Positions 61,801 to 64,000 of a DNA stretch of 64,000 nucleotides are shown in pieces. Source of the DNA: Escherichia coli (GTDB lineage Bacteria > Pseudomonadota > Gammaproteobacteria > Enterobacterales > Enterobacteriaceae). The position numbers were made by a program. The stretch lies in the NCBI RefSeq assembly GCF_044324785.1, contig NZ_CP172127.1. One strand, 5' to 3'. The stretch's first letter is position 1. Each line of letters starts with the position of its first letter.

Positions 61801-64000
61801 AAAACTGAATCATGAATAAATATTGTATTTATCCTTTATGAATTATCATTTTGATAATTTTTGAGATATTCCTTAAAAATACCCACTTAATCAATCACAA
61901 AACAAATATATAAACAAGCAATCATCAGATTAGCTTATGTTTAATGAAATTATTGTATAATTCAATAAGTTATATAAAAACTCTATATTTAAATTATTGC
62001 CATAATACACCTGACGCGAATTGCAAAGGTTCACACAATCTATTTAACGCTTGCAGAATACCCCTCTTTACGATCGATAAAAAGTCCTTTTCTTATTTAT
62101 TTTGAAGCGTAGAATGCGGGGTGATGAAGGAGTGGTGATTTTATTTTCACCGCCATTAGGGCGGCATTGCCGATATTTTTTTGCGGTACAAATATGCCGT
62201 GTTCATGGCCTGTACGAGATAACATGACGGATCACTTTTATGAGCAAAAAATTTGAAGGCAGCGTCGCGCCTCGCGAGCGTATAAATATATCCTATGTCC
62301 CGAAGACAGACGGCCAGACGGCTGAAGTGGAGCTTCCGCTTAACATGCTCGTTGTCGGCGATACCGGAAATACGCAGGAGACATCCCCACTGGATGAACG
62401 TCAGGCAGTTTCCGTTAACAAGCACAATTTCGGTGCGGTGATGGCTGAAGCAGCCATTGGCCTCAATTTTACCGTCCCCGCCACGCTGAAGGGAAGCACA
62501 ACGGACGATGAACTGAATGTGGCGCTGAATATCAAATCACTGGATGATTTTTCACCAGATAGCGTGGCCCGGCAGGTTCCGGAAGTGAATAAATTGCTGG
62601 AACTGCGTGAAGCACTGACTGCACTGAAGGGGCCGATGGGTAACCTTCCGGCATTCCGTACCCAGCTCCAGGCATTGCTGGAAAATGAAGAGTCCCGCGA
62701 GCAGTTGCTCAAAGAAATCGGCCGGGTGAGCAATAAATAACCACCACTATTTCATTAAACAGGGTTATCCAGGCATGACGGCACACAAAAATATCTCCGG
62801 GACATACCACCTCTCTGTTGCAGACATTCTGCAGGTGGTTTACCAGGTATGTTTCAGCCCGTCCGTTGAAATCAACCAGGATGGTGTGGCTGCGCTGATT
62901 ACAACACTGGATCGCCGTATCAGTGATCTATTGGATGAGATTATCCATTTTTGTGAGTTTCAGCAGAGCGCGTCGCACTGGCAGCGCGTACTTCACTGAT
63001 GGCGAAAAGCCGGTTTCAGACACACAGCTAAAACAGAAGGATTTTCAGTATGTCTTTACAGGAAGAGGAACTCGTTTCCAGTCATGCCGGGCAGCCTGAG
63101 CAGGCATCGTCGCTGCTTGATCAAATCATGGCACAGACCCGTATTCAGCCCGGTTCGGAAGGTTATGACGTTGCCCGCCAGGGTGTGACAGCCTTTATTG
63201 CCAGCATCCTGCAATCCACTGCATCTGCCGAACCGGTCAATAAACTGGCCGTGGACAGCATGATTGCAGATATTGATGAACGCATCAGCCGCCAGATGGA
63301 TGTCATCATCCATGCGCCTGCCTTTCAGCAGGTCGAGTCGTTCTGGCGCTCACTGAAAACCATGGTGGATCGCGTTGATTTCCGTGAAAACATCAAGGTC
63401 AACGTGCTTCATGTCACCAAGCAGGAACTTCTGGAAGACTTTGAGTTTGCGCCAGAAATTATTCAGTCCGGATTTTATAAGCACGTTTATTCGTCCGGTT
63501 TCGGACAGTTTGGCGGTGAACCCATCGCTGCCGTGCTGGGCGCTTATGAGTTCAAAAATACCGCGCCTGACATGAAACTACTGCAATACGTCAGTGCCGT
63601 GGGCGCAATGGCGCACGCACCGTTCCTGTCCTCCGTTTCCCCGGAGTTTATGGGGCTGAACTCGTGGACCGAACTGCCTAATATCAAAGAGCTTTATGCC
63701 ATCTTTGAAGGTCCGGCCTACACCAAATGGCGCGCTCTGCGTGACTCGGAAGATTCGCGCTATTTAGGGCTTACGGCACCCCGCTTCCTGCTTCGCCAGC
63801 CTTATTCACCAACAGATAACCCTGTTAAGAACTTTAACTATCACGAAGATGTCAGCCGGAACCACGAAGATTATCTGTGGGGTAATACGGCCTGGATGCT
63901 GGCATGCAATATCGCAGACAGTTTTGCCAAATACCGTTGGTGTCCAAACATCATCGGCCCGCAAAGCGGCGGCGCAGTGAAAGATCTGCCGGTGCATCTG

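What the first reader, a model, noticed from the sequence alone, without database searches (positions are those of the whole stretch)
62741..63049. tssC-like fragment between tssB and the intact tssC: recombination footprint
tssB and tssC are normally adjacent, but here they are separated by 310 bp containing a 74 aa ORF whose C-terminal half aligns to the N-terminal region of the intact TssC at ~40% identity (13/32 in the clearest stretch). This looks like the remnant of a different tssC allele left by module exchange between T6SS loci.
Basis: seen in the sequence. Interest (0 to 1): 0.45.

Follow-up and report, generated by a model that had tools for sequence, protein, structure and literature searches.

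The report
Decaying tssC fragment between tssB and tssC
The 309-bp gap between the two sheath genes of this E. coli type VI secretion locus holds an old, truncated and largely decayed copy of the start of the large sheath gene, fixed in all E. coli carrying this locus and shared with Salmonella and Citrobacter; it is a molecular fossil rather than a recent recombination scar.

Summary
tssB (62240-62740) and tssC (63050 onwards) are separated by 309 nt holding a 74-codon ORF (62775-62999). ORF residues 27-72 are homologous to TssC residues 57-102 (BLASTP E=2e-8; profile-profile E=1e-11).

It is not a strain- or phylogroup-level footprint. The spacer is in about 2240 of 5426 complete E. coli genomes, roughly as many as carry this tssB-tssC region. 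Homologous copies occur in E. albertii, Salmonella, Citrobacter, Yokenella and Atlantibacter. The next-closest loci (Superficieibacter, C. farmeri, Enterobacter) have tssB and tssC 17-23 nt apart.

Within both clades the ORF evolves without coding constraint: pN/pS is about 1 and changes are not enriched at third codon positions, against 0.05-0.2 for tssB and tssC. It is broken in Yokenella, C. youngae and the E. albertii type strain.

The fragment had already diverged about 0.4 substitutions/site from the resident tssC before the E. coli-type and Salmonella-type loci split. No closer TssC turned up among 1.84 billion proteins, so whether it arose by partial duplication or from a foreign allele cannot be resolved.

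Weak signs remain of an earlier coding phase: the start, stop and frame are shared by both clades, and third positions differ most between them.

Verdict: an ordinary, undescribed gene remnant; low interest.

The parts
62240..62740 (+). tssB (sheath small subunit), 166 aa
   Evidence: Pfam T6SS_VipA, E=1.1e-51. RefSeq annotation of the 99.5%-identical strain N3 locus.
62741..63049 (+). 309-nt tssB-tssC spacer, the unit that is conserved across genera
   Evidence: Alignable with the E. albertii, Yokenella and C. youngae spacers and with Salmonella-type spacers. Absent (17-23 nt gap) in Superficieibacter, C. farmeri and Enterobacter. No promoter-like, terminator-like or Rfam match inside it.
62775..62999 (+). 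74-codon ORF, annotated 'hypothetical protein' WP_000123970.1 in RefSeq
   Evidence: Only a weak Shine-Dalgarno-like AGGG sits about 10 nt upstream (read). pN/pS is 0.9-1.7 within Escherichia. Parsimony counts are 7 synonymous to 28 non-synonymous changes.
62853..62990 (+). TssC-homologous segment of the ORF (residues 27-72)
   Evidence: hhalign E=1e-11 with TssC 57-102. BLASTP extends it to residues 15-72, nt 62817-62990.
63036..63041 (+). Shine-Dalgarno sequence (GAAGGA) of the intact tssC, 8 nt before the ATG
   Evidence: Read. AAGGATTTTC is identical in all aligned loci and AAGGATTTT is also present in relic-less Superficieibacter.
63050..64000 (+). Intact tssC, 5' part (runs off the window end)
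   Evidence: Pfam VipB, E=3.3e-104. Full length is 491 aa in strain N3.
63218..63355 (+). Segment of the intact tssC (residues 57-102) that is the paralogous counterpart of the fragment

Best explanation
The spacer is an ancient, truncated, decaying copy of the 5' part of tssC, in other words a gene remnant.

Origin (inferred). One illegitimate event placed about 100 codons of a tssC 5' region between tssB and an intact tssC that kept its own ribosome-binding site. The event was either a partial tandem duplication of the tssC 5' end or an illegitimate join during replacement of the downstream module. It happened in the ancestor of the T6SS lineage that includes E. coli T6SS-2 and related Salmonella, Citrobacter, Yokenella and Atlantibacter loci.

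Present state (shown). The upstream copy survives as a 70-74-codon ORF. Only its last roughly 46 residues still resemble TssC (residues 57-102, the first helix of the VipB domain). In both clades it now accumulates changes as non-coding DNA would, and it has been broken independently in several lineages.

Function (inferred). In present-day E. coli it acts only as a 309-nt intercistronic spacer in the tssB-tssC operon. tssC is translated from its own Shine-Dalgarno sequence.

Not resolved: whether the ORF was a working small gene for part of its history.
For: Homology to TssC 57-102.

Age and distribution:
- The spacer is in 2240 of 5426 complete E. coli genomes with at least 80% coverage; the 1.2-kb tssB-tssC query is in 2222.
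- Homologous spacers occur in E. albertii, Yokenella and C. youngae, Salmonella, and Atlantibacter and C. portucalensis.
- tssB and tssC are 17-23 nt apart in Superficieibacter, C. farmeri and Enterobacter.
- Informative sites in TssB and the TssC N-terminus favour E. coli + Salmonella over Superficieibacter, so a single origin fits.

No coding constraint:
- pN/pS is 0.9-1.7 in Escherichia, against 0.05-0.2 for most tssB and tssC comparisons.
- Parsimony counts: Salmonella-type 25 synonymous to 51 non-synonymous (neutral expectation 21.7 synonymous), codon positions 24/25/27. Escherichia-type 7 to 28, positions 13/16/6.
- Diversity per codon position in the Salmonella-type ORF is 0.101/0.088/0.100, against 0.045/0.013/0.151 for tssB and 0.029/0.013/0.177 for tssC.

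Disruptions:
- Yokenella has a 1-nt insertion and a TAG.
- C. youngae has an in-frame TGA and has lost the terminal stop.
- The E. albertii type strain has lost the ATG and carries frameshifts and an 18-nt deletion.
- E. marmotae has a 16-codon deletion, and many E. coli protein records are frameshifted.

Old and strongly diverged:
- No full-length TssC reached E<=1e-3 in 1.84 billion proteins.
- Divergence between the ancestral fragment and the ancestral tssC is 0.40 substitutions/site, concentrated at codon positions 1 and 2.
Against: The ATG, the TGA stop and the reading frame are the same in the Escherichia-type and Salmonella-type ORFs although they differ at about 39% of nucleotides. Their one internal indel is 12 nt. 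A simple neutral simulation gives P=0.10 for no internal stop and about 0.005 if the start and stop must also be kept.

Between the clades, the TssC-like segment differs most at third positions: K = 0.51/0.37/0.99 for codon positions 1/2/3, and pS 0.82 against pN 0.31. This hints at a coding phase in the deeper past.

The ORF is intact in all 59 full-coverage E. coli genomes sampled, where an annotated hypothetical protein lies under every match. It is also intact in 11 Salmonella-type protein clusters of 68-70 aa. The latter were found through a protein database and so are biased towards intact ORFs.

In the Salmonella-type clade the spacer diverges more slowly (0.08-0.11) than flanking synonymous sites (0.16-0.39), especially in its last 100 nt.
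Confidence: 0.62

Rival explanations
1. Origin variant, the first reader's reading moved to a deeper level. The fragment is the 5' end of an older, different tssC allele. It was left behind when the tssC-tssE-... module was replaced by a related incoming module through one homologous and one illegitimate join. This concerns origin only and is compatible with the fragment being a relic today.
For: The fragment had diverged about 0.40 substitutions/site from the resident tssC before the clades split. By TssC N-terminal distances the stem of the relic-bearing clade looks short: E. coli-Salmonella 20%, against E. coli-Superficieibacter 21.7%.

The locus is demonstrably mosaic. TssB and the TssC N-terminus favour E. 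coli + Salmonella (17 to 9 informative sites). The TssC C-terminus, TssE and TssF favour E. coli + Superficieibacter (9 to 23).

Within E. coli, L006 against L008 gives tssB pS 0.163 but tssC pS 0.009, with the breakpoint inside the spacer.
Against: The excess divergence lies at codon positions 1 and 2, not 3. That is the signature of decay, not of two functional alleles.

The fragment is marginally closest to the resident and Superficieibacter TssC (16-21 of 43) rather than to other lineages (10-17 of 43).

No full-length TssC reached E<=0.001 among 1.84 billion representatives.

The mosaic breakpoint between genera falls inside tssC at about codon 160-200, not at the fragment.

The apparent extra depth of TssB is explained by TssB evolving about 2.5 times faster at equal pS and by saturation of its variable sites.

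Allelic replacement can remove the relic from lineages, so its absence elsewhere does not date it.
Confidence: 0.3
2. The ORF encodes a functional small protein, a fast-evolving mimic of the first helix of the TssC N-terminal domain. It would bind TssB or modulate sheath assembly or turnover.
For: The start, stop and frame are shared between clades, and third positions differ most between clades.

AlphaFold predicts a helix at 15-26 and a long helix at 35-73, mean pLDDT 76.6.

The ORF is intact in nearly all E. coli.
Against: There is no purifying selection within either clade.

Helix-breaking and motif-destroying substitutions occur among the intact variants, for example LD to PD, DEIIH to GEITY, and DEIIP.

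Nonsense and frameshift alleles occur in three of the five lineages that were found without reference to the ORF.

The Shine-Dalgarno-like sequence is weak.

No Pfam or NCBIfam family exists for it. The fold search was uninformative.
Confidence: 0.1
3. Translation of the ORF matters but its sequence does not. Ribosomes crossing the spacer would protect the 309-nt intercistronic RNA from Rho-dependent polarity, or set the TssB:TssC ratio. Selection would then keep the frame open while amino acids drift.
For: This combines the two otherwise conflicting observations: omega is about 1, yet the start, stop and frame are retained across 39% divergence.
Against: Nonsense changes are not depleted within the Salmonella-type clade: 2 of 77 changes, about the neutral expectation. 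The ORF is broken in Yokenella, C. youngae and the E. albertii type strain, where tssB and tssC are intact ORFs. There is no direct evidence of translation.
Confidence: 0.1
4. The spacer is retained because its 3' part forms an intercistronic RNA structure, acting as a processing or stability element or as a tssC translation control.
For: Conservation rises towards tssC: diversity is 0.04-0.05 in the last 100 nt, against 0.11-0.14 at the 5' end.

Window 62905-63025 folds with z=-2.5, and E. albertii L009 with z=-2.7.

In the RNAalifold consensus, 8 of 33 pairs have changes on both sides, and only 1 of 500 shuffles reaches that.
Against: The structure was derived from the same alignment, so the test is circular. 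The compensatory changes are single events on the one long branch between two clades.

Salmonella-type sequences fold no better than shuffles (z -0.5 to -0.8), and E. albertii L003 gives z=-0.1. The whole spacer gives z=-0.77. There is no Rfam match.

One hairpin (GAUGAnAUnAUC) is a by-product of the D-E-I-I codons.
Confidence: 0.07
5. The TssC similarity is a chance or compositional resemblance of a spurious ORF.
For: Each database hit taken alone is below its curated threshold. The library-wide HMMER search lists no full-length TssC.
Against: Pairwise E=2e-8 and profile-profile E=1e-11. Every sub-threshold hit maps to the same TssC segment. The similarity is shared by the independently diverged Salmonella-type copies. 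The fragment lies immediately upstream of tssC itself.
Confidence: 0.02

Closest known systems
TssC / VipB, contractile sheath large subunit (Pfam PF05943 + PF18945; TIGR03355)
   Same: Residues 27-72 of the ORF are homologous to TssC residues 57-102, the start of the VipB N-terminal domain. The shared motif is (L/I)D.RIS...D.IIH...FQQ...W(R/Q). The same segment aligns to V. cholerae VipB and another solved TssC.
   Different: The ORF has 74 residues against about 491. It covers about 32 of 301 positions of the N-terminal domain model and none of the C-terminal domain. It has no detectable counterpart of the N-terminal roughly 56 residues of TssC, where the conserved SLLD.IMAQTRI motif lies. 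It is not under purifying selection.
Gene remnants (pseudogene fragments) left by partial tandem duplication or illegitimate recombination in bacterial operons
   Same: It is a truncated paralogous fragment next to its intact parent gene. It has neutral substitution patterns and lineage-specific frameshifts and stops. It is annotated only as a hypothetical protein.
   Different: It is unusually old and stable. It is fixed in a T6SS lineage that spans several genera, and both deep clades still share one start, one stop and one reading frame.
Canonical tssB-tssC junction of related T6SS loci (Superficieibacter, C. farmeri, Enterobacter cloacae complex)
   Same: Gene order is the same (hcp and vgrG divergent from tssB-tssC-tssE-tssF), and so is the tssC leader: AAGGATTTT.AGTATG in Superficieibacter.
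   Different: Those loci have 17-23 nt between tssB and tssC. This lineage has 290-309 nt.

Membership tests
TssC/VipB sheath large subunit | Scores above the curated family threshold (PF05943 gathering score 27 bits; TIGR03355 271.5 bits) | tested here: not met
   17.3 bits for PF05943 and 19.1 bits for TIGR03355.
TssC/VipB sheath large subunit | Sequence homology to TssC | tested here: met
   For one segment only: ORF 27-72 with TssC 57-102, hhalign E=1e-11 and BLASTP E=2e-8.
TssC/VipB sheath large subunit | Full architecture: N-terminal VipB domain plus C-terminal VipB_2 domain, about 490 aa | tested here: not met
   74 aa. It matches model positions 2-33 of 301 only and has no VipB_2. The intact neighbour has both domains.
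TssC/VipB sheath large subunit | Conserved N-terminal SLLD.IMAQTRI motif. That this is the ClpV-binding helix is my recollection, not tested here. | tested here: not met
   The motif is invariant in the six TssC N-termini and absent from the ORF. ORF 1-32 against TssC 1-62 is not significant (18 of 20 tests at p>0.1).
Gene remnant / pseudogene fragment | Homologous to only part of a functional gene, and truncated | tested here: met
Gene remnant / pseudogene fragment | No purifying selection on the encoded protein | tested here: met
   Within both clades pN/pS is about 1 and changes are not enriched at third codon positions.
Gene remnant / pseudogene fragment | Independent disruptions in different lineages | tested here: met
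   Yokenella, C. youngae, the E. albertii type strain and E. marmotae.
Gene remnant / pseudogene fragment | No evidence of constraint at any time depth | tested here: inconclusive
   Retention of start, stop and frame has P about 0.005-0.1 under a neutral simulation. Third positions differ most between clades.
Bona fide conserved small T6SS accessory gene | Present in intact loci across the T6SS subtype | tested here: not met
   Confined to one sub-lineage and absent from Superficieibacter, C. farmeri and Enterobacter loci.
Bona fide conserved small T6SS accessory gene | Expressed as a protein with a phenotype | not testable with these tools
   No expression data were available. No paper mentions WP_000123970 and none was found that describes the ORF.

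The most novel reading that the evidence does not exclude
The 70-74-residue ORF is, or was until recently, a translated small protein derived from the first helix of the TssC N-terminal domain. It would bind TssB or cap or modulate sheath polymerisation in this T6SS lineage. Its near-neutral sequence evolution would reflect either a loose requirement for an amphipathic helix or recent relaxation of selection.
Probability: 0.1. Interest if true: 0.55.

Novelty: new member of a known kind. Interest (0 to 1): 0.22.

Why it matters
It has little mechanistic importance.

It does explain a 'hypothetical protein' (WP_000123970.1 and relatives) annotated in about 40% of complete E. coli genomes and in several other genera. 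The entry is better labelled a tssC-derived remnant.

The remnant is also a convenient lineage marker. Its presence separates E. coli T6SS-2 and the related Salmonella, Citrobacter, Yokenella and Atlantibacter loci from their closest relatives. Its alleles expose recombination breakpoints between the hcp/tssB side and the tssC side of the locus.

Only if the ORF turned out to be translated and active would it bear on sheath assembly or on how TssB and TssC amounts are balanced.

Tried and rejected
1. Read-through homology past the TGA. tblastn ran through the stop in E. coli, but only 3 of 12 residues match in E. coli and 0-1 of 12 in Salmonella-type copies. Rejected.

2. The ORF's ATG and leader being a copy of the tssC ATG and leader. 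Salmonella-type copies do start MGLREE or MSLRK, against TssC MSLQEE. DNA local alignments are no better than shuffles (p=0.19-0.65). Protein tests reach only 2 of 20 at p<0.05. Suggestive only.

3. Search for a donor TssC. HMMER against 1.84 billion representatives returned only the ORF's own family, the Salmonella-type ORF (E=1.3e-4) and a few large multi-stretch proteins.

4. Fold comparison. The model is a generic helix hairpin and no PDB match reaches E<=0.001.

5. TssB appearing 'deeper' than TssC as evidence for exchange at the junction. Rejected after finding that TssB evolves about 2.5 times faster at equal pS and that its distances plateau at 24-36%.

6. Promoter, terminator and Rfam scans of the spacer found nothing inside it.

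7. RNA structure: inconclusive and partly circular.

8. Literature. No paper was found that describes this ORF. Whether the Salmonella locus is SPI-19 could not be verified.

Full report
**Anatomy**

The end of the window holds the left part of an E. coli type VI secretion locus. VgrG (58707-60815) and Hcp (61025-61543) lie on the minus strand. After a roughly 700-nt AT-rich divergent region come tssB (62240-62740, +), a 309-nt gap, and tssC from 63050 to the window end.

The window is 99.5% identical here to E. coli strain N3. In N3 the locus sits next to fadE-ivy-yafV and continues tssC-tssE-tssF-tssG-tagH-tssJ-tssK-icmH(tssL)-tssH-vasI-tssA. This is the locus called T6SS-2 in O157:H7 EDL933 (PMC7216683).

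The gap contains one ORF, 62775-62999, 74 aa. RefSeq annotates it as hypothetical protein WP_000123970.1.

Yes.
- BLASTP of the ORF against the resident TssC N-terminus gives 20/58 identities, E=2e-8, aligning ORF 15-72 with TssC 50-102.
- Pfam VipB (E=0.0026, model positions 2-33), TIGR03355 (E=5e-4) and all five PDB hits (all TssC/VipB) point to the same segment, though each is below its threshold.
- A profile of six ORF relatives against a profile of six TssC N-termini gives 97.4% probability, E=1e-11, ORF 27-72 with TssC 57-102.

The N-terminal third of the ORF has no significant similarity to TssC 1-62. The apparent read-through homology after the stop does not hold in other copies.

**Distribution**

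The spacer is found in 2258 of 5426 complete E. coli genomes, 2240 of them with at least 80% coverage. The 1.2-kb tssB-tssC query is found in 2222 at that coverage, so carriage of the spacer tracks carriage of the locus. All 59 full-coverage genomes sampled down the ranking carry an annotated hypothetical protein there. There are two main E. coli alleles, at >=99% and about 93% identity, plus recombinants between them.

A TssB-based scan of one genome per species and TssB-based look-ups gave homologous spacers in:
- the E. albertii type strain, Yokenella regensburgei and Citrobacter youngae;
- Salmonella enterica, where a 70-codon ORF uses the same ATG and the same TGA.

Searching with the Salmonella ORF found 68-70-aa versions in Atlantibacter, C. 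portucalensis and unnamed contigs.

The next-closest loci by TssB identity (68-73%) are Superficieibacter, C. farmeri and an Enterobacter cloacae complex strain. In these tssB and tssC are 17-23 nt apart.

Parsimony-informative sites in TssB and the first roughly 160 residues of TssC favour E. coli + Salmonella to the exclusion of Superficieibacter, 17 to 9. The TssC C-terminus, TssE and TssF favour E. coli + Superficieibacter, 23 to 9. The locus is therefore mosaic. The side that carries the fragment supports a single origin in the common ancestor of the Escherichia-type and Salmonella-type loci.

**Is it a gene?**

*Within Escherichia*, ORF pN/pS is 0.9-1.7 in every informative pair. For example, the window against E. 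albertii L009 shows 6 synonymous and 19 non-synonymous differences. The same pairs give 0.05-0.2 for tssB and tssC.

*Parsimony counts on trees, with a kappa-adjusted neutral expectation*:
- Salmonella-type: 25 synonymous to 51 non-synonymous changes (21.7 synonymous expected), with changes at codon positions 24/25/27.
- Escherichia-type: 7 to 28, with codon positions 13/16/6.

*Nucleotide diversity per codon position* in the Salmonella-type ORF is 0.101/0.088/0.100. For tssB it is 0.045/0.013/0.151 and for tssC 0.029/0.013/0.177.

*Disruptions:*
- Yokenella has a 1-nt insertion plus a TAG.
- C. youngae has an in-frame TGA and has lost the terminal stop.
- The E. albertii type strain has lost the ATG and carries frameshifts and an 18-nt deletion.
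- E. marmotae has a 16-codon deletion.
- Among 'intact' Salmonella-type variants there are L-to-P changes and losses of the DEIIH motif.

The present-day sequence is therefore not held by selection on a protein.

**Residual signs of a coding past**

The two deep clades differ at about 39% of spacer positions yet share the start, the stop and the frame. Their one internal indel is 12 nt. A simple substitution-only simulation gives P=0.10 for no internal stop, and about 0.005 if the ATG and stop must also survive.

Between clades the TssC-like segment differs most at third positions: K = 0.51/0.37/0.99, and pS 0.82 against pN 0.31. These signals are marginal (p about 0.01-0.07) and partly affected by how the loci were found. 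They are compatible with a translated, weakly constrained ORF earlier in its history.

**Origin**

A three-point estimate on the 129-nt homologous segment puts the divergence between the ancestral fragment and the ancestral resident tssC at 0.40 substitutions/site (95% CI 0.25-0.64), already at the time the two clades split. For scale, E. coli against Enterobacter tssC gives 0.47 in the same segment. That is more than a short stem lineage should allow and is the best argument for a 'different allele'.

Four points argue against a foreign allele:
- The excess sits at codon positions 1 and 2 (0.61, 0.38) rather than 3 (0.16), which looks like decay rather than divergence between working alleles.
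- The fragment is marginally nearest to the resident and Superficieibacter TssC. It shares their IIH...FQQ signature and Superficieibacter's MDEIIH..EFQQ.
- An exhaustive search listed no full-length TssC at E<=0.001.
- Allelic replacement can erase the relic from lineages, so its absence elsewhere does not date it.

I therefore cannot separate a partial duplication of the lineage's own tssC from an illegitimate join with a diverged allele. Both are ancient events in the ancestor of several genera's loci, not exchanges between E. coli phylogroups.

**Other functions considered**

- No promoter-like, terminator-like or Rfam match lies in the spacer.
- tssC has its own good Shine-Dalgarno sequence (GAAGGA, 8-nt spacing), conserved in all loci. 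The ORF has only a weak AGGG about 10 nt upstream.
- The last roughly 100 nt before tssC are the most conserved part of the spacer, as expected of a translation-initiation leader.
- A 121-nt stretch (62905-63025) folds somewhat better than shuffles in Escherichia-type sequences (z about -2.5 to -2.7) but not in Salmonella-type or L003 sequences. The covariation support is circular.
- The AlphaFold model is a generic helix plus long helix with no informative structural neighbour.

**Verdict**

Its core reading, a tssC remnant, is right. Its specific history, module exchange between E. coli T6SS loci, is not supported at that level and cannot be resolved at the deeper level.

The feature is an undescribed but ordinary gene remnant, fixed in one T6SS lineage. 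A small chance remains that the ORF is or was a functional small protein or a translated spacer.

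Noticed in passing
L006 vs L008 (E. coli strains), corresponding to window 62240-64000: tssB synonymous divergence is 0.163 while tssC is 0.009 for the same pair of strains. 14 of the 18 ORF differences fall in its first 116 nt. A homologous-recombination breakpoint therefore lies inside the spacer. P0004 and P0005 are recombinant ORF alleles.
   Followed up: partly
L001, L013, L014 (E. coli, Salmonella, Superficieibacter loci): There is phylogenetic incongruence along the locus. TssB and the TssC N-terminus group E. coli with Salmonella. The TssC C-terminus, TssE and TssF group E. coli with Superficieibacter. The switch is near TssC residue 160-200 (the partition was chosen post hoc).
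   Followed up: partly
Protein P0033 (E. coli, 7 contigs): A 100-aa ORF joins the first 26 residues of the spacer ORF to the C-terminal end of TssC (VipB_2 domain). This is a deletion variant that removes most of tssC, so some strains carry a degraded locus.
   Followed up: no
L008 (O157:H7 strain Z1832) 2351-3742; L001 25127 onwards (strain N3): The O157:H7 tssC is annotated 84 nt shorter at its 3' end than in other strains (1392 against 1476 nt). tssA is annotated as frameshifted in strain N3, and PMC7216683 reports an interrupted tssA in EDL933.
   Followed up: no
window 62905-63025: This RNA stretch, covering the 3' half of the ORF and the start of the tssC leader, folds with z about -2.5 in Escherichia-type sequences. 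It does not in Salmonella-type sequences. A few pairs change on both sides between the clades.
   Followed up: partly
window 61544-62239: This is a roughly 700-nt AT-rich divergent region between hcp and tssB. It contains all six sigma-70-like matches of the 1.8-kb scan (3.6 expected from shuffles). It is probably the regulatory region of the locus.
   Followed up: no
Proteins P0171, P0172, P0175, P0177: These large proteins (941-2270 aa) match the 74-aa ORF in 3-7 separate stretches each (E=1e-12 to 7e-4) in the exhaustive HMMER search. They may be repeat or coiled-coil proteins. They were not examined.
   Followed up: no
L001 2393-8441 (strain N3, region upstream of VgrG): An ISAs1 transposase pseudogene and a frameshifted, C-terminally incomplete Rhs core protein flank the VgrG side of the locus. 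Whether the same holds in the window was not checked.
   Followed up: no
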